Origin: an uncultured bacterium
GTDB taxonomy: Bacteria > Bacillota_I > Bacilli_A > RF39 > UBA660
DNA: 64,000 nucleotides
Direction of reading: 5' to 3'
NCBI GenBank assembly: GCA_949285875.1
Contig: CASDZZ010000002.1
Span: 1,101 to 65,100 of the forward strand
In this document: positions 5,729-12,680 of the stretch, piece by piece
How positions within the stretch are numbered: position 1 is the first letter of the stretch
How the letters are laid out: every line of letters begins with the position of its first letter
The notes under the pieces: generated by a model
The model's input: only the letters and a program-made list of their open reading frames with translations
Databases searched by the model: none
Told to the model about the DNA's origin: nothing
Position numbers and translations under genes: made by a program

Positions 5729-5770
5729 ACTATCAAAATTATATCATAATTTTAATTTAACTAAAAGAAA

Positions 5771-5794
5771 AAAAGTTCCTAAAAGGGAACTTTT
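5771..5794. terminator. terminator hairpin downstream of the SWIM-protein gene
   Basis: aaaagttcc-taaaag-ggaactttt forms a 9-bp stem; T-run on the minus strand. Confidence 0.55.
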
Positions 5795-5945
5795 TTAAAA
5801 CTTGTTACAACAACCAGGATCAACGTTTGTTACTACGTCTTCTTCAGAACAAGTATATTGTGGCGTATATTTATGTTCTATTATATGGTTATTAATAACT
5901 TTGGTGTGAATTGGACAAATATGTCCTTGCCCTTTTTTGATAGAT

Positions 5946-7529
5946 TTAATTTTTAATTGCTTTATTTATTTCATCAAATAACGCTGAACACTTTTGATAA
6001 TCTGAATTTTTTAAATCTATTAAAATTTTTTCTACTAATTCATTACCATTATTCAATTTTGAAATTGCACTTATATATTTTGATGCTTTATTGTAAATAT
6101 CTCTGCTCTTTTCTTGTTTAAGAATATTATAAAATTCATTAATAAAATGATTATATAATTCATCGTTATAGTTATCTTTTAAAATTTCTATATTATCTAA
6201 CAATAAATATCTATAATTACTATCAATTAATAAGTTCCATAACTTTTCTTGTTTTTCATAAAATTTATAAAGCTTAACAAGTAAGAAAATATCTTTAGTT
6301 TTATTTTCTATAATACTAATAATTTTATCTTCAGTTAAATAATACCCTAAAATATTCAAATACTCAATATGTCCCAAACATAAATAACTATACAAATAAT
6401 GATTCGTATTTATATCTTTATTTTCAAAATCAGTAACCCTAACAAACCTATATAATACATCTGGAATATACATTTTATTTCTAAAATGTTTTTTTTCAAT
6501 TAATTTCATAAAAGATTTATATAAATTCATAATATCATTACTATTTTCTACTATATAATCAATATATTGAAAATATTTAGCATTTTTCAACATTAAACTA
6601 GCACACTCTGTTATGGTAAAATCATTTAATAAATGAATGGCTATTAAGACATTTGATTTTGGAACTGTATTTTTAATACTATAATGTTTTAAACTGCCTA
6701 AATAATCTTCTAATATTTTACAAAATTCATAAATTTCTTCACTACTTTTATTTTTTTTATAAAATTGAGCAATCCATCTATAATCAGAATAAACTGATAA
6801 TTTTTCATTTAATAATATTTTATCTATTTGCAATTGTAATGATTCATTTTTATATAGTTCCTCTATTTTTCTTTTTTCTCTAACATTTAATATTTCTTTA
6901 TCAAAATCATTATAATCATAATTATAATAACCAGTTAGATCTTGAACTCTTTTGTTTAATCTATCTAAAAATACAAACTCATCACTATTATTCTGTAAAT
7001 ATTTTTTATAATTCTTTTCTAGATATAAGTCATATGTTCTTTTCTCATTATTTTTAAGTTCTGTTAACAATGTTGATTTTAATTCTTCTATACTCAAATC
7101 ATCAACATATTTTTCTAATACTACATCAAAAAATAACGGTTTTTCAAAATTAAAAGATTTAATATAATCATGATAATAATCTCCATCGTTATAATAACTA
7201 TCATATTCATAGTAGTCGTCTTCGCCATCTTCATCATAATCACTATTTAGCCAGGATTCATAATCATCTACTTCATCAGGAAACAATTCAAAATATAATG
7301 CAGTCATATGCTTACAAGTAATATTTCCATTTGCATGAGGACAATCACAATATGATTTTCTAGGATGTTTTATATCTATCTTTACATAATAAGGATTTTT
7401 TAAACTTCCATCAACATATCCCTCAAATTCATGATCATTTAATTGTTTTACATTACTAACTTTATTATATTTATAATAGTCATAACCTCTACTAACAGAA
7501 GAACTACTTGCACTTGTAAGAATGCTCAT
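5946..7529 (-). CDS. SWIM zinc-finger domain protein with an acidic Tyr/Asp-rich low-complexity segment
   Basis: CDCPHANGNITCKHMTALYF fits the SWIM pattern CxCx(n)CxH. An acidic stretch DYDEDGEDDYYEYDSYYNDGDYYHDY follows. The rest is alpha-helical and K/N-rich. Confidence 0.7.
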   Translation of the reverse strand: MSILTSASSSSVSRGYDYYKYNKVSNVKQLNDHEFEGYVDGSLKNPYYVKIDIKHPRKSYCDCPHANGNITCKHMTALYFELFPDEVDDYESWLNSDYDEDGEDDYYEYDSYYNDGDYYHDYIKSFNFEKPLFFDVVLEKYVDDLSIEELKSTLLTELKNNEKRTYDLYLEKNYKKYLQNNSDEFVFLDRLNKRVQDLTGYYNYDYNDFDKEILNVREKRKIEELYKNESLQLQIDKILLNEKLSVYSDYRWIAQFYKKNKSSEEIYEFCKILEDYLGSLKHYSIKNTVPKSNVLIAIHLLNDFTITECASLMLKNAKYFQYIDYIVENSNDIMNLYKSFMKLIEKKHFRNKMYIPDVLYRFVRVTDFENKDINTNHYLYSYLCLGHIEYLNILGYYLTEDKIISIIENKTKDIFLLVKLYKFYEKQEKLWNLLIDSNYRYLLLDNIEILKDNYNDELYNHFINEFYNILKQEKSRDIYNKASKYISAISKLNNGNELVEKILIDLKNSDYQKCSALFDEINKAIKN

Positions 7530-7563
7530 ACTACCACCTCTTGATATATTATTATATCATACC

Positions 7564-9132
7564 CTAATTAGAATTATTAAAACTAACTTTAATTTTTATA
7601 GTTTTATCTTCAAAGATTTCTATTTTATCAATTAGATTAATTATTAATTCTCGGCTTGGTTCTTTCATAGATAAAAACTTATTAATATATTCATGAATCA
7701 TTTTATTTTTATATTCTTCATGAATAGTATCATCGATCTCATTATTTAACTCGTTATATCTTTTTTGTTTTATATTTAATTCATTTTCTAGTTTTAATTT
7801 TAATCTTTCAAATTGTTCTTCGGTTATCTTTTTATTTAATTTATCAATATAAATAATATCTAAGTTATCATTTATTTGTTTAATATCTTTGGTAAGTATT
7901 TCTAACTCTTTTTTATTATTAAACTTATTATCTTCTGTTAAATTATTTAATACATTATTTTTTATTTCATCTTTATTAAGATAATTTAAACACATATTAA
8001 TTAAAGATTTAATTATCGTTTTCTCTAATTCATCATAATTATTTGAATGAGTTGTACAAAGTTTTTGTTTCATATAAGTTCGATAATAATTACAAACAGT
8101 ATAACATCTATTATCTTTTTTTCTTCTTGCTTGTACTGAAATGCGATGTCCACAATCACCACAATATAAAAGCCCATCTAATAAATGATTTTCTTTCTTT
8201 TCATTTCTTCCCACATTTTTAGGTATTCTTTTTCGCGTTTCATAAAAGGTATCCTTATCAATAATCGCCTCATGGGTATTCTCTACAATTATATAGTCGC
8301 ATACATTATTTTTAATAACTTTTTTAACTTTATAATTAACTTTACTTCTTCTATTTTGAACCATATCTCCTATATACATCCTATTAGTTAAAATATCTCT
8401 TATTGTTTTAGAATGCCACTCTCCATACTTTAAATTATAATTATTTTTCCATTCAAAACTATAATACCCAGCTGGTGTTTTGACTCCTTCATTCGTTAAC
8501 TGTTTTGCTATTTTAAAAAATGATAATCCCTCTAAACACATATCAAAAATTCTTTTAACAACTAATGCTTGTTCTTCATTTATTACCAAATGATTTTTAT
8601 CATTCGGATCTTGATCATATCCAAATGGAGTTCTACCTCCTACCCATTTTCCTTCTTTTTGTTTTGCTCTTAAACTTGATTTAATTTTTTTAGAGATATC
8701 TTTAGCATACATATCATTCATAATTGCCTTGAATGGTGCAATATCATTATTAGAATTATCTAGAAAAGTGTCTATATTATCTGTAACTGCAATATACCTT
8801 ACATTATGCTCTGGAAAATACTTTTCTATTAAATTACCTGTACCAATATAATCTCTTCCTAATCTTGACATATCTTTAGTAATAACCATATTAACTCTAC
8901 CTAATTCAATATCATTTAATAATCTATTGAAATCGGGTCTATCAAAATTAGTTCCACTATATCCATCATCAATATAAATATCATAGACTCTTAAATTATT
9001 TTCTTTAACATATTGAAGTAATAAACTCTTTTGATTTGTAATACTTTCACTTTCTAATGCTTTATCATCATCTTCACGAGATAACCTTATATAAATACCA
9101 ACATTATATATCTTATTTATACTCCCTAACAA
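7564..9132 (-). CDS. large serine recombinase (resolvase/invertase N-domain + recombinase domain + zinc ribbon + coiled coil)
   Basis: GIYIRLSREDDDK...SITNQ catalytic-Ser motif. Downstream Cys cluster CGDCGHR...CYTVCNYYR. C-terminal coiled coil. TTG start with a GGAGG RBS. Confidence 0.85.
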   Translation of the reverse strand: MLGSINKIYNVGIYIRLSREDDDKALESESITNQKSLLLQYVKENNLRVYDIYIDDGYSGTNFDRPDFNRLLNDIELGRVNMVITKDMSRLGRDYIGTGNLIEKYFPEHNVRYIAVTDNIDTFLDNSNNDIAPFKAIMNDMYAKDISKKIKSSLRAKQKEGKWVGGRTPFGYDQDPNDKNHLVINEEQALVVKRIFDMCLEGLSFFKIAKQLTNEGVKTPAGYYSFEWKNNYNLKYGEWHSKTIRDILTNRMYIGDMVQNRRSKVNYKVKKVIKNNVCDYIIVENTHEAIIDKDTFYETRKRIPKNVGRNEKKENHLLDGLLYCGDCGHRISVQARRKKDNRCYTVCNYYRTYMKQKLCTTHSNNYDELEKTIIKSLINMCLNYLNKDEIKNNVLNNLTEDNKFNNKKELEILTKDIKQINDNLDIIYIDKLNKKITEEQFERLKLKLENELNIKQKRYNELNNEIDDTIHEEYKNKMIHEYINKFLSMKEPSRELIINLIDKIEIFEDKTIKIKVSFNNSN

Positions 9133-9302
9133 TTCTTACCTCCTTCTAGAGATAAATAAGTACATGATGATGGTACCTCACAATTTTTATTTTTACAAAT
9201 TGTTTTAATATATTTTTTAAGTTCTTTATTTAAAACATTTATTAAGATATCATTTACATCTTTTTCTTTATTAAAAATAAAATTTATTTTGTACTTATCC
9301 AT
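9123..9302 (-). CDS. small hypothetical protein (59 aa) overlapping the recombinase start by 10 nt
   Basis: GAGGTG RBS 8 nt upstream of the ATG at 9302. Product MDKYKINFIFNKEKDVNDILINVLNKELKKYIKTICKNKNCEVPSSCTYLSLEGGKNC. Under 60 aa, so absent from the ORF track. Confidence 0.4.
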
Positions 9303-9346
9303 AACTCTCGCACCTCACTTAAATTTATGGATAAATAACTAATTTT

Positions 9347-9397
9347 AGTAATACTAAATCGTGTAAATATCACATTACACATTAATTTAGTATTACT
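9347..9397. promoter_or_regulatory. 51-bp imperfect palindrome (operator or att-like site) upstream of the small-ORF/recombinase operon
   Basis: 13-bp perfect inverted repeat agtaatactaaat at 9347-9359 and 9385-9397, enclosing an inner inverted repeat gtgtaa / ttacac (9361-9366 and 9375-9380). On the minus strand it overlaps a TAAAAT -10-like box about 45 nt ahead of the ATG at 9302. Confidence 0.5.
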
Positions 9398-9718
9398 TAT
9401 AGGTATTCACCTCTTTAATAATTATTTTTTAAATTTTCATAAACATCATCTCCTTTCACGATGCATGCTAACTTACTAATCAATTCTTATTAATCAATTC
9501 TTGTCAAATCATATTTTTTTGCTTTAATTATTCTAAATACCATTATTTTTTATTAATTCTACTAAAGCAGGATAAGATGATGACACCACAATATAAAAAA
9601 AGCCCTTATACAATAAGGATTTGTTATGGTGTCATTCTTATTTTATACTTACAAAATTCATCCTACTTCGCAGGTTAATATAAAGGGTAAATTCTTATTT
9701 TATAAGATATTAAAGCAT

Positions 9719-9766
9719 ATAAAAACATCCTATATTTAATAAATTAATTATTTTTGTAGGATGTTT
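9719..9766 (-). terminator. terminator after the Fic gene
   Basis: aacatccta...taggatgtt 9-bp stem followed by a T-run on the minus strand. Confidence 0.5.
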
Positions 9767-9772
9767 AATTTT

Positions 9773-10543
9773 TTAATTGTTTTCTTCAATTTTAAAATCT
9801 AGTAATTCTTCACACATTTTTTCGTATAAATCTTGTTCATGTCTAATAGTATCAATCAAGAACATTTTATCATTTTCGTATTCTTTTAAACCTCTCATAT
9901 AATAAGGTTTATCATCATCTAATACAATAAATGGCATAATGTTATTTCTTAAACATTCTTTAAACATTATAATTCTACCTACACGACCATTTCCATCTCC
10001 AAATGGATGAATTCTTTCAAATCTAAAATGAAAATCAACTATATCTTCTAAAGTAATACTAATTTTAGAATTATATTCATTTAATAATTCTTCTATTTCT
10101 TTTTCAACATCTTCTGGTGCTGTAGTATTAATAACATTAACTACACCTATTATATTAGGAACAATTTTAAATCCACCAACATTATATCTAGGATTTTCTT
10201 CATCACTAGTATTTCTTTTTAAAATCTTATTCATTTCAATTATCATATCTTCAGTTAATGAGTTATCAACGTTATCTAACATATAATCAAATAATTTAAA
10301 ATGATTTTTAGATTCGATTAAATCATCTAATTTAATTAAATCATCACTTTTAGGAACAAATGAAGATGTATCGAATATTGCTTCGGTTTGATCACTTGTT
10401 AATCTACTACCTTCAATTTTATTTGAATTATAAGCAAAATTAACTTGTGAATAATGATATATATTACCTTTAAATTTAGACTCTTTTTGTTTAATTAATT
10501 CATTTTTAATTTTATTTATATCCATATATTCATTTCTCCTCAT
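9773..10543 (-). CDS. Fic/Doc family protein (Fido), class-II-like with an N-terminal inhibitory motif
   Basis: Core Fic motif HPFGDGNGRVGR. N-terminal SNKIEG matches the inhibitory motif (S/T)xxxE(G/N). Confidence 0.85.
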   Translation of the reverse strand: MRRNEYMDINKIKNELIKQKESKFKGNIYHYSQVNFAYNSNKIEGSRLTSDQTEAIFDTSSFVPKSDDLIKLDDLIESKNHFKLFDYMLDNVDNSLTEDMIIEMNKILKRNTSDEENPRYNVGGFKIVPNIIGVVNVINTTAPEDVEKEIEELLNEYNSKISITLEDIVDFHFRFERIHPFGDGNGRVGRIIMFKECLRNNIMPFIVLDDDKPYYMRGLKEYENDKMFLIDTIRHEQDLYEKMCEELLDFKIEENN

Positions 10544-11016
10544 TTTATATTATTTAAACGTTTTAATATTTTATAACTATTTTCTAATCTATCTCTTTCT
10601 GATTTAAAATCTTCCATATCATTAGTTAATATATAACCACCTGTTTCTATAAATTCTTGATTATAATTACTTGCTAAAGAAATCCATTTTTCTGCATCAG
10701 AATGAGATAAGTGCACCATTTCCAGACATTCTAGTTCATCATCATACAAGCCAAACCAATTTTCATCATAAGGTCTATCATCGATATAAATAATATCTCC
10801 AAAGATTGATAGCATTAAATCTTTAAAATTTTTATATGTTAAGCTCTGTTCATCTTTTGAAAAAATGTCTGTTTTATAACCATAATTGCTAAAAAGTTCA
10901 TTCAATTTTGGAACTATTTCATTAATATGATTTTCATTGAATTCTATCATAGAGGTAGTTCCATAATGATAAACGTTAGCTATCATTATTCTAATTATTA
11001 ATTCTATTTCACTCAT
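10540..11016 (-). CDS. hypothetical protein translationally coupled to Fic; possible antitoxin or immunity partner
   Basis: Its stop overlaps the Fic start as ATGA. 158-aa acidic protein with no clear motif. Confidence 0.5.
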   Translation of the reverse strand: MSEIELIIRIMIANVYHYGTTSMIEFNENHINEIVPKLNELFSNYGYKTDIFSKDEQSLTYKNFKDLMLSIFGDIIYIDDRPYDENWFGLYDDELECLEMVHLSHSDAEKWISLASNYNQEFIETGGYILTNDMEDFKSERDRLENSYKILKRLNNIK

Positions 11017-11133
11017 TTATCATCACCTGATTCGATATCTATTAAAATTATACCATATAATAAGACATTTTTTATCAATATGTCTTTCATTTGTACTTAT
11101 TTTCTCTTAATTTATTTAGTCTATCATAAATTA

Positions 11134-11286
11134 TCACACTTGTTCAACAGTATGACAAATATCTCTAGTTACACATTTTTCTATTGTTGGTTCTATAACT
11201 GGATTACAAGGAAATTCTGTTGGACACTTGTTTTCACAGCAGCAGTCATTCATTTGAAAACCGCCAAACTTATTATTAAAAAACAT
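11134..11286 (-). CDS. Cys-rich small protein (50 aa, MFFNNKFGGFQMNDCCCENKCPTEFPCNPVIEPTIEKCVTRDICHTVEQV)
   Basis: GGGGGA RBS 6 nt upstream. Lies directly downstream of ffh with no intervening terminator. The strand-opposite 77-aa ORF 11080..11313 is less plausible. Confidence 0.45.
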   Translation of the reverse strand: MFFNNKFGGFQMNDCCCENKCPTEFPCNPVIEPTIEKCVTRDICHTVEQV

Positions 11287-11358
11287 TTAAAATCCCCCTT
11301 ACCTACTTTATAGTATGAGAATTTTAAATGTTTGAATAGGTTTTCACCTCATAAATAA

Positions 11359-12666
11359 TTAAAAAGGCATTTTAAAATTTCCGTTTTTCATCATCTTCAT
11401 CATTTTCTTCATTTGCTCGAACTGTGTTAAAAGGCGATTAACTTCTTGAACAGTAGTTCCACTTCCACTTGCTATTCTTTGTTTTCTAGAAGCCTTTATT
11501 ATATCAGGGTTTCTTCTTTCTTTAATAGTCATAGAAGAAATAATAGCTTCTAACCTACTAAATTGCTTAGGGTCTATACTTATGTTATTAAGTCCCATTT
11601 TTCTAGCTCCTGGAAGTAACTTTAATAAATTTTCTAATGGTCCTAGCTTCTTAATTTGCTTTAGTTGTGATAAAAAGTCTTCTAAATCAAACTTACCTTG
11701 CTGCATCTTTTTAACGGTAGACATCGCTTCTTTTTCATCAATTACACTTTCTGCTTTTTCAATGATTGACATTATATCTCCGTTACCTAATATTCTAGAT
11801 ACCATTCTTTCTGGATCAAATGAATCTAATCCATCTAATTTTTCACTAGTACCTATAAACTTAATTGGAACACCGGTTAAATGCTTAGCTGATAAAGCAA
11901 CTCCGCCCTTAGTATCACCGTCCATTTTAGTTAAAATAGTACCTGTTAGAGGAAGAGCTTCGTTAAAACCTTTTATAACGTTAATTGCATCTTGACCTAT
12001 CATAGCATCAATAATAAGAATTATTTCGTTAGGATTTACAGATTCTCTTATTTCTTTTAATTCATCCATTAATTTTTCATCTACGTGCAATCTACCTGCC
12101 GTATCAACTAAAATTAAATCATAGCCTTTTTCTTTAGCATAATTAACACCATTTTTAACTATTTCTACCGCGTTTTTTTGACCTTCTTCATATACTTCTA
12201 TATTAAGTTCTTTACCTAAGGTTTTAAGCTGCTCTATTGCTGCAGGGCGGTATACATCAGCCGCTATAAACATAGGCTTTTTGCTTTTTTTCTTCCTAAG
12301 TAAGTTTCCTAACTTTCCTATTGTTGTAGTTTTACCTGAACCTTGAAGACCTACTAACATAACGATAGAAGGATTTTTAGATAAATCTATTTCAGCTTTT
12401 TCGTTACCTAGTAAAGCTAGAAGTTCATCTTTTAATATTTTTAAGAATACTTCACCTGGTTTTAAACTTTTCTTAACTTCTTCTCCTAAAGCTTTTTCTT
12501 TAACTTTGTTAGTAAATTCTTTGACAACTTTATAGTTAACATCAGCTTCTAGTAAAGCAAGTCTTACGTCACGCATTGCATCACTTATATTATCTTCGGT
12601 TATTCTTCCATAACCCTTAATCTTACTTACCGCGTTTTCTAATTTTTCTGTTAAACTTTCAAACAT
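11359..12666 (-). CDS. ffh: signal recognition particle protein Ffh
   Basis: GLQGSGKTTT P-loop, SRP54 N/G domains, Met-rich C-terminus. Confidence 0.95.
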   Translation of the reverse strand: MFESLTEKLENAVSKIKGYGRITEDNISDAMRDVRLALLEADVNYKVVKEFTNKVKEKALGEEVKKSLKPGEVFLKILKDELLALLGNEKAEIDLSKNPSIVMLVGLQGSGKTTTIGKLGNLLRKKKSKKPMFIAADVYRPAAIEQLKTLGKELNIEVYEEGQKNAVEIVKNGVNYAKEKGYDLILVDTAGRLHVDEKLMDELKEIRESVNPNEIILIIDAMIGQDAINVIKGFNEALPLTGTILTKMDGDTKGGVALSAKHLTGVPIKFIGTSEKLDGLDSFDPERMVSRILGNGDIMSIIEKAESVIDEKEAMSTVKKMQQGKFDLEDFLSQLKQIKKLGPLENLLKLLPGARKMGLNNISIDPKQFSRLEAIISSMTIKERRNPDIIKASRKQRIASGSGTTVQEVNRLLTQFEQMKKMMKMMKNGNFKMPF

Positions 12667-12680
12667 ATTATCACCTTTTA

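What the first reader, a model, noticed from the sequence alone, without database searches (positions are those of the whole stretch)
9347..9397. 51-bp nested palindrome upstream of the small-ORF/serine-recombinase operon
A perfect 13-bp inverted repeat (agtaatactaaat / atttagtattact) encloses a second inverted repeat (gtgtaa / ttacac). It lies about 45 bp upstream of the operon start and overlaps a -10-like TAAAAT. Large serine recombinases act on 40-50 bp imperfectly dyad-symmetric att sites. The site could instead be an autoregulatory operator.
Basis: seen in the sequence. Interest (0 to 1): 0.6.

Follow-up and report, generated by a model that had tools for sequence, protein, structure and literature searches.

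The report
Conserved hairpin upstream of recombinase operon
The palindrome is real and strongly conserved, but it is not the recombinase's DNA target: it is a hairpin-forming control element in the promoter/leader of a small-protein plus serine-recombinase operon, carried by a 5.2-kb mobile element that splits a spore-coat gene.

Summary
The 13-bp perfect inverted repeat (9347-9359 / 9385-9397, 25-nt spacer, inner GTGTAA/TTACAC) exists as described. Alone it is not beyond chance (about 0.7 expected per window). However, both arms are perfect in 27 related loci, while the spacer, the linker and third codon positions drift.

It is not an att site. The recombinase element (about 5923-11140) interrupts a CotD-like spore-coat gene. 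Its real junctions share a CA core and conserved, unrelated arms (TCTATCA...TGATAGA). An intact gene (empty site) exists in a relative.

The palindrome lies inside the element, in the regulatory region of the operon (58-aa candidate directionality factor, then recombinase; minus strand). Relatives carry a sigma-A-like promoter, a short upstream ORF ending at the base of the palindrome, the palindrome (20-bp hairpin), and a second covarying hairpin that buries the 58-aa ORF's start codon.

The six changes inside the distal arm all keep G·U pairing. Arm spacing varies (12-25 nt between arms). A divergent clade has a different sequence that folds the same way. The proximal arm never changes and survives where the distal arm is lost; it sits a fixed 14 nt from a CATA-type -10 box.

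Best reading: a leader-RNA hairpin folding back on the operon's core promoter region. A DNA operator remains a serious rival.

The parts
9385..9397 (-). Distal (5') arm of the palindrome/hairpin HP1, AGTAATACTAAAT in operon orientation. In relatives it contains the stop codon (TAA, 9395..9393) of the upstream short ORF.
   Evidence: Six changes at internal arm positions in relatives all keep G·U or U·G pairing.
9360..9384 (-). 25-nt spacer. The inner stem GTGTAA (9380..9375) pairs with TTACAC (9366..9361), with an 8-nt loop and a 3-nt bulge on the 5' side.
   Evidence: Fold. The spacer varies between species but stays self-complementary.
9347..9359 (-). Promoter-proximal (3') arm, ATTTAGTATTACT. 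It is invariant in all close relatives and retained where the distal arm is lost. It overlaps a candidate -35 region (TACTAAA, 9350..9344).
   Evidence: A fixed 14-nt distance to the CATA box was read from the sequences.
9322..9329 (-). Candidate mother-cell-type -10 box CATAAATT (proposed promoter P2), overlapping the 5' arm of hairpin HP2.
   Evidence: An invariant block TTTATCCATAA follows a 7-nt linker that varies in sequence but not in length. [quoted passage not shown] Assigning this box as a promoter is inference.
9295..9334 (-). Hairpin HP2: 5' arm TTATCCATAA (9334..9325), Shine-Dalgarno GTGAGGTG (9318..9311) in the loop, and 3' arm TTATGGATAA (9304..9295) holding the ATG of the 58-aa ORF.
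   Evidence: There are compensatory changes between clades (ATC/GAT versus AAC/GTT; AA/TT versus AGA/TCT) and in L046.
9126..9302 (-). 58-aa ORF, conserved family (MDKYKINxIx..INDILIxVLxKEL), candidate recombination directionality factor. It overlaps the recombinase start by 7 nt.
7564..9132 (-). Large serine recombinase (522 aa).
9429..9449 (-). Upstream short ORF (SD AAAGGAG, then ATGATGTTTATG). In this window it is cut to 6 codons by an AAA-to-TAA change. In relatives it has 11-18 codons and ends at the base of HP1.
9444..9463 (-). Hairpin HP0 (CATCGT / ATGATG) around the short ORF's SD and start codons.
9465..9507 (-). Sigma-A-like promoter P1: TTGACA (9507..9502) and TAGCAT (9470..9465). 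In this window a 14-nt tandem duplication (9474-9501) makes the spacing 31 nt instead of 17.
   Evidence: (D5). Both clades of relatives have TTGAC(A/T)-17/18-TA(T/G/A)CAT.
11114..11142 (-). attL: crossover CA (11142-11141) plus the element-side arm AGTGTGATAATTTATGATAGACTAAAT.
5922..5946 (-). attR: element-side arm AATCTATCAAAAAAGGGCAAGGA plus the crossover CA (5923-5922).
   Evidence: An intact attP is seen in L034.
11134..11286 (-). N-terminal half of the split CotD-like gene (50-aa ORF). A sigma-K-type -10, CATACTATA, lies at 11317..11309.
5798..5921 (-). C-terminal half of the split CotD-like gene (..ICPIHTKVINNH..GCCNKF, then stop), followed by a terminator at 5796..5768.

Best explanation
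The palindrome is a conserved cis-regulatory hairpin (HP1) in the control region of the operon that encodes a 58-aa candidate directionality factor and a large serine recombinase. The operon belongs to a 5.2-kb integrative element that splits a CotD-like spore-coat gene.

Shown: the context, the true att sites, the conservation, the folding and the pattern of substitutions.

Inferred mechanism:
1. The promoter-proximal arm (9347-9359) belongs to the operon's core promoter region. A -35-like TACTAAA sits 14 nt from a CATA-type -10 box typical of mother-cell sigma factors. That -10 box lies in the 5' arm of a second hairpin (HP2), which buries the start codon of the 58-aa ORF.
2. Transcripts that start at this inner promoter lack HP1 and the 5' arm of HP2, so they can be translated.
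3. Transcripts that start further upstream come from a conserved sigma-A-like promoter followed by a short ORF, or from read-through. They contain the distal arm, fold into the 20-bp HP1 and into HP2, and keep the directionality factor untranslated, while the recombinase, with its own ribosome-binding site, can still be made.
4. HP1 thus masks the AU-rich stretch in front of HP2 and ends the zone opened by ribosomes translating the short ORF, whose stop codon lies at the base of HP1.
5. The outcome would be excision only when the inner promoter fires, before the sigma-K-type promoter of the reconstituted coat gene is used.
For: Not an att site:
- The junctions, the CA core, the conserved P and P' arms, an intact attP in L034 and an empty attB in L081/L082 are all identified.

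Conservation above background:
- Arm identity is 0.96 and 1.00, against 0.60-0.77 for the linker, the spacer and third codon positions.

Hairpin rather than two fixed half-sites:
- The distance between the arms is 25 nt in most loci, 24 in L014 and 22 in L051.
- In L217 the hairpin is only an 8-bp stem with a 12-nt loop.
- The spacer is self-complementary in every lineage, although its sequence differs.
- A clade with only 56% recombinase identity has an 18-20-bp hairpin of different inner sequence at the same place. One outer pair is changed on both sides (C-G to U-A), and another column shows C-G, U·G and U-A.

RNA level, sense strand:
- In the 13-bp helix 99.7% of cells are paired, and all six changes at internal arm positions are A-to-G or C-to-U on the 5' arm, giving G·U or U·G. 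By my own estimate the chance of 6 out of 6 is about 0.0006-0.014 for transition/transversion ratios of 2-10.
- The sense strand folds better than the antisense strand in 37 of 49 distinct sequences.
- The 181-nt leader folds to -44.2 kcal/mol against -25.3 +/- 3.3 for shuffles, z = -5.8.

RNA-logic neighbours:
- HP2 has compensatory changes that track a coding change in codon 2. It keeps the AUG paired (P unpaired about 0) while the SD stays exposed (0.7-0.95) in all 36 leaders modelled.
- A short ORF of 11-18 codons ends at the base of HP1 in 39 of the 41 leaders listed that carry it (those starting MM/MI/MY/MF); the window and L078 are the exceptions.

Extra DNA-level constraint on the proximal arm:
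- It shows no substitution in 26 distinct sequences.
- It is retained in loci that have lost the upstream promoter, the short ORF and the distal arm, and that have a terminator immediately upstream (L010, L035, L036, L038, L039, L063).
- It lies at a constant distance from TTTATCCATAA across a linker of variable sequence.

Same design nearby:
- The CotD-like gene itself has a CATAnnATA -10 in 28 species, together with species-specific hairpins that pair an upstream segment with its SD and start codon.

Precedent:
- In Clostridium difficile skin, the recombinase is constitutive while a small directionality factor is sigma-E dependent. Inverted repeats around the recombinase start site were noted there but not explained (PMC5025042).
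Against: - No transcript data exist: neither promoter nor any RNA end is mapped, and the sigma-E/K assignment rests on a short AT-rich consensus.
- Within the close clade there is no pair changed on both sides in HP1, and the shuffle control is uninformative.
- In the inner stem, and in one sub-clade of the divergent group, A·C mismatches are about as common as G·U, and the antisense strand folds better in 12 of 49 sequences.
- The sequences share recent ancestry: the element is 81-95% identical between hosts whose ffh genes are 67-76% identical. Counts of species therefore overstate independence.
- Blocking the 5' arm in silico does not open HP2, so no simple switch links HP1 to translation of the 58-aa ORF. 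The precise role of HP1 in the RNA remains a guess.
- In this window the upstream promoter spacing (31 nt) and the short ORF (nonsense codon) look damaged, yet the palindrome is intact.
- No sporulation gene other than the CotD-like gene was recognised in the window.
Confidence: 0.5

Rival explanations
1. DNA operator. A host or element regulator, for example a sporulation transcription factor, binds the two arms on duplex DNA. Each arm is itself a small palindrome (AGTA-N-TACT; the proximal one extends to TTTAGTA-T-TACTAAA). The bound protein would repress or activate the adjacent promoter, and the distal arm would be an auxiliary site.
For: - Arm sequence is conserved far beyond what pairing requires, and the proximal arm never varies.
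- The proximal arm is kept without its partner and overlaps the probable -35 region.
- Each arm has internal dyad symmetry (read from the sequence; one search also finds the self-match at 9343-9355).
- Self-complementarity of the spacer could be a by-product of template-switch 'correction' of quasi-palindromes. The L033 spacer is an exact inversion of the common spacer, which shows that such events happen here.
- A·C mismatches occur in the inner stem.
Against: - The arm-to-arm distance is not fixed: 25, 24 or 22 nt, and 12 nt in L217.
- The divergent clade keeps the fold but changes the half-site geometry (GTA-N4-TAC versus GTA-N1-TAC).
- All six changes inside the distal arm are G·U-compatible on one strand only, which a duplex-binding protein would not impose.
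- No DNA-binding domain is found in the adjacent 58-aa product.
Confidence: 0.27
2. Recombination site: an attP-, attB- or pseudo-att site, or a target for inversion, used by the large serine recombinase.
For: - Its size (51 bp) and dyad symmetry resemble attP sites, and it lies next to the recombinase gene.
- The L033 spacer is inverted relative to its relatives.
Against: - The true attL and attR are identified at the ends of the element. They share a CA core and have conserved arms (TCTATCA..GGAC|A..TGATAGA) unrelated to AGTAATACTAAAT, and an intact attP and attB are seen in relatives.
- The palindrome is internal to the element.
- Its odd length puts the dyad on a base.
- There is no second copy in the window beyond chance: 19 matches with up to 2 mismatches against 13.6 expected.
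- Homology between loci does not break at the palindrome.
- A 25-bp segment is too short for enzyme-mediated inversion.
Confidence: 0.03
3. Transcription terminator or insulator for transcripts coming from upstream (Fic gene, or the upstream promoter plus short ORF as a self-contained small transcription unit).
For: - It forms a stable 20-bp hairpin of -19.2 kcal/mol.
- It lies between an upstream promoter/short ORF and the operon.
Against: - The stem is AT-rich and is followed by AAAAUUAG rather than a U-tract, and the terminator scan reports no site at the palindrome.
- The Fic gene has its own canonical terminator at 9766..9723.
- Typical terminators in this window are GC-cored with T-runs, for example 5796..5768.
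Confidence: 0.05
4. No function of its own: a quasi-palindrome kept perfect by replication template switching and shared because the element spread recently between species.
For: - The element is much more similar between hosts than the housekeeping flanks are.
- A single 13-bp inverted repeat is expected by chance about 0.7 times per window.
- The spacer inversion in L033 points to template switching.
Against: - The arms are 0.96-1.00 identical while adjacent non-coding columns and third codon positions are 0.60-0.77 identical in the same sequences.
- A hairpin sits at the same position in a clade whose recombinase is only 56% identical.
- The substitution pattern is directional.
Confidence: 0.08

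Closest known systems
Sporulation-gene intervening elements with a large serine recombinase and a small directionality factor: skin (sigK), SPbeta (spsM) and gin (gerE) (PMC5025042, PMC4191935, PMC5499854, PMC5595907)
   Same: - A large serine recombinase element interrupts a gene expressed late in the mother cell.
- The joined reading frame is precise, and an intact gene exists in relatives.
- A small protein with no recognisable motif is encoded with the recombinase (GirX 42 aa, CD1234 72 aa, here 58 aa).
- The element is small and carries no phage genes, like gin.
- In skin of C. difficile, unexplained inverted repeats flank the recombinase start site.
   Different: - The target is a CotD-like coat gene.
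- The small ORF lies directly upstream of the recombinase and overlaps it in one operon.
- A conserved structured leader (short ORF plus three hairpins) precedes the operon.
- Excision during sporulation, and sporulation of the hosts (uncultured gut Bacilli known only from metagenome bins), are not shown.
- The palindrome itself has no described counterpart.
Fold-back inhibition of read-through transcripts in insertion sequences (IS10/IS50 type; from my own knowledge, not checked in the library)
   Same: An inverted repeat buries the start codon only in transcripts that begin upstream, because the element's own promoter lies inside or next to the 5' arm. The design matches HP2, and also the hairpin around the CotD-like gene's promoter.
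   Different: This applies to HP2 rather than to the palindrome HP1, whose 3' arm carries no start codon or SD. The promoter position here is inferred, not mapped.
Leader-peptide translational attenuators (ermC, cat-86 type; from my own knowledge)
   Same: A short leader ORF overlaps the 5' arm of a hairpin, upstream of a second hairpin that occludes the start of the regulated gene.
   Different: The defining alternative pairing (segment 2 with segment 3) is absent. Blocking the 5' arm does not free the start codon in any of 36 leaders. No resistance gene is involved, and the leader ORF is dispensable in many relatives and broken in this window.
attP/attB sites of large serine recombinases
   Same: 40-50 bp in size, imperfect dyad symmetry, adjacent to the recombinase gene.
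   Different: See the membership test: the palindrome is not at a junction, has the wrong symmetry (odd length), has no partner site, and has no similarity to the family's own att arms.

Membership tests
Large serine recombinase att site | Lies at the recombination junction: element boundary, or attP on the excised form. | tested here: not met
   The junctions are at 11142/11141 and 5923/5922. The palindrome is internal, and homology between loci continues on both sides of it.
Large serine recombinase att site | Dyad symmetry about a central 2-bp crossover (even length). | tested here: not met
   13+25+13 = 51 bp, so the dyad falls on base 9372, and the spacer length varies (22-25 nt). The real attP is symmetric exactly about C|A: TCTATCA-N30-TGATAGA.
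Large serine recombinase att site | A cognate partner site, or shared half-site sequence with the known att arms. | tested here: not met
   No second copy in the window beyond chance. The arms are unrelated to TCTATCAAAAAAGGGCAAGGAC and AGTGTGATAATTTATGATAGAC.
Dimeric-repressor operator | Conserved dyad half-sites. | tested here: met
   Arm identity is 0.96-1.00 across 26 distinct relatives.
Dimeric-repressor operator | Fixed half-site spacing. | tested here: not met
   There are 25, 24, 22 and 12 nt between the arms in different loci. Core geometry differs in the divergent clade.
Dimeric-repressor operator | A cognate DNA-binding protein, with binding shown. | not testable with these tools
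   The 58-aa product has no Pfam or NCBIfam hit and models as one helix (pLDDT 65).
Cis-regulatory leader RNA hairpin | Base pairing maintained through substitutions (wobble or compensatory), strand-specific. | tested here: inconclusive
   In the outer helix 6 of 6 internal changes are G·U type, and there are one or two compensatory pairs between clades. No double change occurs within the close clade, and the inner stem shows A·C as often as G·U.
Cis-regulatory leader RNA hairpin | Located in a transcribed 5' leader. | not testable with these tools
   A conserved TTGAC(A/T)-17/18-TATCAT lies about 110 nt upstream in both clades, but no transcript data are available. In this window the spacing is 31 nt.
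Leader-peptide attenuator (erm/cat type) | Leader ORF overlapping the 5' arm. | tested here: met
   An 11-18-codon ORF ends at the base of HP1 in 39 of the 41 leaders listed that carry it. In the window it is truncated by a nonsense codon.
Leader-peptide attenuator (erm/cat type) | Alternative pairing that frees the RBS or start codon when the 5' arm is occupied. | tested here: not met
   Constrained folding of 36 leaders leaves the AUG paired in all but marginal cases.
Intrinsic terminator | G+C-rich stem followed directly by a U-tract. | tested here: not met
   The stem is AT-rich and followed by AAAAUUAG, and the terminator scan reports no site at the palindrome.
Known RNA family (Rfam 15) | Match to a curated covariance model. 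| tested here: not met
   Only two chance-level snoRNA matches at E about 3.
Sporulation-gene intervening element (context of the palindrome) | A recombinase element splits a sporulation gene, and the frame is restored on precise excision. | tested here: met
   The two halves join in frame at CA to give a 90-aa protein collinear with intact 80-96-aa homologues. All 15 aligned members hit PF11122 (CotD) at E up to 0.01, best 2.4e-6, though the window's joined protein scores below Pfam's cut-off. An intact gene lies downstream of ffh in L081/L082. A sigma-K-type -10 is present in 28 species.
Sporulation-gene intervening element (context of the palindrome) | Excision occurs in the mother cell during sporulation. 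| not testable with these tools
   The hosts are uncultured, and no other sporulation gene was recognised in the window.

The most novel reading that the evidence does not exclude
The palindrome is the central hairpin of a previously undescribed, conserved cis-regulatory leader: sigma-A promoter, short ORF, three hairpins, and a nested mother-cell promoter. This leader would let one operon deliver recombinase alone from long transcripts, for integration, and recombinase plus directionality factor from short transcripts, for excision. It would thereby set the direction of recombination through the choice of transcript start. The leader serves a family of mobile elements that occupy a CotD-like coat gene in hundreds of uncultured gut Bacilli species.
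Probability: 0.3. Interest if true: 0.65.

Novelty: new variant of a known kind. Interest (0 to 1): 0.5.

Why it matters
Large serine recombinases are strictly directional. What decides integration versus excision is when the small directionality factor is made. In the few studied sporulation elements this is done with separate genes and promoters. Here both genes sit in one operon behind a conserved, structured leader.

If the hairpins gate translation of the factor according to where the transcript starts, that would be a compact and portable way to control recombination direction. It would also be a new candidate RNA motif. The work further identifies a new, very widespread target gene (CotD-like) and well-defined attP and attB sequences for an uncharacterised recombinase clade, which is useful for genome-engineering toolkits.

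For the scan itself, the result shows that a palindrome next to a recombinase gene should not be assumed to be its att site.

Tried and rejected
1. My first guess for the crossover was the 9-bp repeat ATATTTGTC present at both junctions. It was wrong. Alignment with intact homologues showed 7 missing residues and moved the crossover to the CA core; the 9-mer reflects a repeated ICH/ICP peptide motif.
2. An apparent similarity between the palindrome spacer (AATGTGTAA..GATATTT) and the host side of junction A was dropped for the same reason.
3. erm-type attenuation was tested by constrained folding and is not supported.
4. A second ORF reading through HP1 and HP2 in the divergent clade was considered. 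Its frame is not conserved in the close clade, and an open frame of that length is expected by chance about 5% of the time per frame, so it was rejected as evidence.
5. SpoIIID-like boxes (KRTAACARK, PMC5025042) were compared by eye with the spacer, with no convincing match.
6. Sigma-70 promoter at TAAAAT: it is not conserved and no site is reported there.
7. Rfam, at two thresholds, gave nothing.
8. Phage collection: no DNA match to the leader, and recombinase relatives are at most 35% identical. Viral contigs: no match to the proximal arm plus HP2 pattern.
9. The metagenome scan with AAGGAGATGATGTTTATG was too generic. Most of its more than 120 hits were unrelated; only 17 carried real leaders (12 new distinct sequences), all from the divergent clade.
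10. The structure prediction of the 58-aa protein was low-confidence and uninformative.
11. Motif and family searches for other sporulation genes in the window found only a weak YutH-like hit.
12. Extra look-ups of contigs encoding the small protein added only four distinct new leader sequences.
Full report
**1. The observation**

The sequence and the repeat finder (pair I22) confirm a perfect 13-bp inverted repeat: AGTAATACTAAAT at 9347-9359 and ATTTAGTATTACT at 9385-9397, separated by 25 nt. The inner repeat is gtgtaa (9361-9366) and ttacac (9375-9380). Its centre is 1.5 bp from the outer centre, so the palindrome is nested but asymmetric.

The adjacent genes are on the minus strand: a 58-aa ORF (9302..9126) overlapping a 522-aa large serine recombinase (9132..7564), which carries Resolvase, Recombinase and Zn_ribbon_recom domains. 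From here on I describe everything in operon orientation. In that orientation 9385-9397 is the distal (5') arm and 9347-9359 the promoter-proximal (3') arm.

In this 27% G+C window a perfect 13-bp inverted repeat with a gap of 40 or less is expected 0.65-0.8 times by chance. The palindrome alone proves nothing.

**2. Conservation**

A scan of one genome per species found at least 575 relatives of the recombinase, and the best 80 were kept. All come from uncultured gut Bacilli, 'Tenericutes' or Erysipelotrichaceae bins.
- In 27 of 71 loci with enough upstream sequence, both arms are perfect at the same position while the spacer differs.
- Among 26 distinct close relatives, mean pairwise identity is 1.00 for the proximal arm and 0.96 for the distal arm. 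It is 0.74 for the spacer, 0.60 for the 7-nt linker downstream and 0.77 for third codon positions of the 58-aa ORF.

The arms are therefore under constraint. One caution applies. The element is 81-95% identical between hosts whose ffh genes are only 67-76% identical, and the host with the most similar flanks (L061) has a recombinase only 67% identical. The element has evidently moved between species, so the loci are not as independent as the species count suggests.

**3. What the recombinase really acts on**

Downstream of ffh there is a 50-aa ORF (11286..11134). On the far side of the recombinase lies an unannotated frame reading ..ICPIHTKVINNH..GCCNKF, then a stop and a terminator. Intact homologues of 80-96 aa exist. 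The alignment shows that the two halves join at ..DICHTVE|HICPIHT.., and all 15 aligned members hit Pfam CotD.

A relative carries the intact gene directly downstream of ffh, which is the empty site. My first guess at the crossover, a shared ATATTTGTC, was wrong and was corrected by that alignment.

The junctions are:
- ..GTTGAACA|AGTGTGATAATTTATGATAGAC.. with CA at 11142-11141;
- ..TCTATCAAAAAAGGGCAAGGACA|TATTTGTCC.. with CA at 5923-5922.

About 50 species share the element-side arms, while the host side varies with the coat-gene codons. L034 contains an intact attP between two tandem elements. The reconstructed attP is symmetric exactly about C|A (TCTATCA-N30-TGATAGA).

The element is thus about 5.2 kb (5923-11140). 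In transcription order it carries a 158-aa ORF, a Fic protein with its own terminator (9766..9723), the leader discussed here, the 58-aa ORF, the recombinase and a 527-aa SWIM-like protein. The palindrome is internal, shares nothing with the att arms, has no second copy in the window beyond chance and has an odd length. The att-site reading is rejected.

**4. Anatomy of the region around the palindrome**

Relatives from two clades (recombinase 82-95% and about 56% identical) share the same order of features:
- TTGAC(A/T)-17/18-TA(T/G/A)CAT, a sigma-A-like promoter (P1);
- a small hairpin, HP0, around AAAGGAG and ATGATG;
- a short ORF of 11-18 codons whose stop lies at the base of the palindrome, in 39 of the 41 leaders that carry it;
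- the palindrome, HP1;
- a linker;
- a second hairpin, HP2, whose loop holds the Shine-Dalgarno sequence and whose 3' arm holds the ATG of the 58-aa ORF.

The window's 181-nt leader folds into exactly these three hairpins at -44.2 kcal/mol, against -25.3 +/- 3.3 for shuffles (z = -5.8).

HP2 is well supported as a structure. Between clades the second codon changes from GAT to GTT and the opposite arm changes from ATC to AAC. The bases before the ATG change from TT to TCT, with AA changing to AGA opposite. L046 has a C-to-T change matched by G-to-A. In all 36 leaders modelled the AUG is paired (P unpaired about 0) while the SD is exposed.

In this particular window the upstream module looks damaged. 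A 14-nt tandem duplication (9474-9501) stretches the promoter spacing to 31 nt, and an AAA-to-TAA change truncates the short ORF. The 95%-identical L001 has neither lesion.

**5. Hairpin or pair of protein sites?**

Several observations favour a hairpin.
- The distance between the arms is not fixed: 25 nt in most loci, 24 in L014 and 22 in L051. L217 has only an 8-bp stem with a 12-nt loop.
- The spacer is self-complementary in every lineage although its sequence differs. The result is a stem of about 20 bp with a 3-nt bulge.
- The divergent clade has a different inner sequence that folds into 18-20 bp at the same place. One outer pair is changed on both sides (C-G to U-A), and one column shows C-G, U·G and U-A.

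The substitution pattern points to RNA on the sense strand. In the 13-bp helix 99.7% of cells pair, and all six changes at internal arm positions are A-to-G or C-to-U in the 5' arm, giving G·U or U·G. By my estimate this happens by chance with probability 0.0006-0.014, depending on the transition bias. The sense strand folds better than the antisense strand in 37 of 49 distinct sequences.

There is counter-evidence.
- No double change occurs within the close clade.
- The inner stem shows A·C about as often as G·U.
- One sub-clade folds better as antisense.
- L033 carries the exact inversion of the common spacer. This shows that template switching can reshape the palindrome without selection for RNA.

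**6. The proximal arm is more than a pairing partner**

The proximal arm has no substitution at all in 26 distinct sequences, not even the wobble-compatible ones. It is also retained, as TA(A/T)TACTAAAA, in loci that have lost P1, the short ORF and the distal arm, and that have a terminator immediately upstream (L010, L035, L036, L038, L039). The minimal element L063 also retains it; there attL lies only about 95 nt from the ORF. Those loci still need a promoter, and it must lie in the roughly 60 nt that remain.

The proximal block and the invariant TTTATCCATAA are separated by a linker of constant length and free sequence, which is the signature of a bipartite promoter. Read as TACTAAA-14 nt-CATAAATT, it resembles mother-cell promoters. 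CATA-type -10 boxes are shared by sigma-E and sigma-K, with ATA or AC at -35 (PMC3789822). The 14-nt spacing rule is from my memory of the Bacillus subtilis consensus.

The -10 box falls in the 5' arm of HP2. Transcripts starting there would therefore lack that arm and be translatable.

The same design is visible at the coat gene itself. In 28 species it has a CATAnnATA box, with species-specific upstream segments that pair with its SD and start codon. In this window that hairpin is another perfect 13-bp repeat (11281-11293 / 11321-11333).

**7. Proposed mechanism (inferred)**

The inner promoter fires in the mother cell and yields a short mRNA from which both the 58-aa protein and the recombinase are made. 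The 58-aa protein is a candidate directionality factor, like GirX or CD1234 (PMC5595907, PMC5025042). The element then excises, and the coat gene is rebuilt before its sigma-K-type promoter is used.

Longer transcripts, from P1 or from read-through, fold into HP1 and HP2. HP2 blocks the factor's start codon. HP1 pairs the AU-rich stretch in front of HP2 and bounds the region opened by ribosomes finishing the short ORF. The recombinase, with its own GGAGG site, could still be made, which would serve integration.

Constrained folding shows that HP1 is not an erm-like switch, so its exact contribution remains the weakest step. The repeated loss or damage of the upstream module (L035, L039, L217, this window) fits an accessory role.

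**8. Comparison with what is known**

The context is a new member of the sporulation-gene intervening elements (skin, SPbeta, gin), with a new target gene. HP2 and the coat-gene hairpin work like fold-back inhibition in insertion sequences.

The palindrome itself matches no Rfam family, no phage or viral sequence, and none of the families tested in the membership table. Inverted repeats around the recombinase start site in C. difficile skin were drawn but not explained (PMC5025042). They may be the nearest published analogue.

**9. Verdict**

My confidence in each reading:
- leader-RNA hairpin folding back on the core promoter region: about 0.5;
- duplex-DNA operator: about 0.27;
- terminator, recombination site or neutral quasi-palindrome: the remainder.

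Interest is moderate. This is a new variant of known kinds of control, attached to a widespread and previously undescribed element family.

Noticed in passing
window 5922-11142: A 5.2-kb large-serine-recombinase element splits a CotD-like spore-coat gene between ffh and rpoZ. It has a CA crossover core and conserved attL/attR arms, and relatives carry an intact gene. Related elements occur in at least 575 species-level genomes of uncultured gut Bacilli.
   Followed up: yes
window 11281-11293 / 11321-11333: A second perfect 13-bp inverted repeat surrounds the coat gene's sigma-K-type -10 (CATACTATA, in the loop) and its SD and ATG (3' arm). Twenty-eight species have species-specific, covarying versions. 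It looks like fold-back silencing of read-through from ffh.
   Followed up: partly
window 9474-9501 and 9429-9431: A 14-nt tandem duplication stretches the upstream promoter spacing from 17 to 31 nt, and an AAA-to-TAA change truncates the short upstream ORF. Both lesions are absent from the 95%-identical L001.
   Followed up: yes
L033, about 60 nt upstream of its small ORF (7831): The 25-nt spacer of the palindrome is the exact reverse complement of the spacer common in relatives (L008 type). This is an inversion between the arms, probably by template switching.
   Followed up: partly
L034 around 3399: An intact attP (P arm-CA-P' arm) lies between two tandem copies of the element.
   Followed up: partly
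window 9525-9686; L076 2036-2158; L077 7282-7441: A non-coding segment is 80-85% identical in loci whose other sequence is about 68-70% identical. It holds a nested repeat (ATGACACCA..TGGTGTCAT) around a terminator-like hairpin on the minus strand, and a possible 38-codon ORF on the plus strand (9627-9743). It has no Rfam match.
   Followed up: no
window 5946-7529, 9773-10543, 10540-11016: The element's cargo comprises a 527-aa protein with a SWIM-like CxC..CxH motif and no family hit, a Fic-domain protein, and an overlapping 158-aa ORF upstream of it. This may be a toxin/antitoxin or defence pair. The cargo differs between loci (mosaic).
   Followed up: no
loci L001-L080 compared with window 7548-12676: Recombinase-region DNA is 81-95% identical between genomes whose ffh is 67-76% identical, and the closest host flank (L061) has a distant recombinase. 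This indicates horizontal spread and module exchange.
   Followed up: partly
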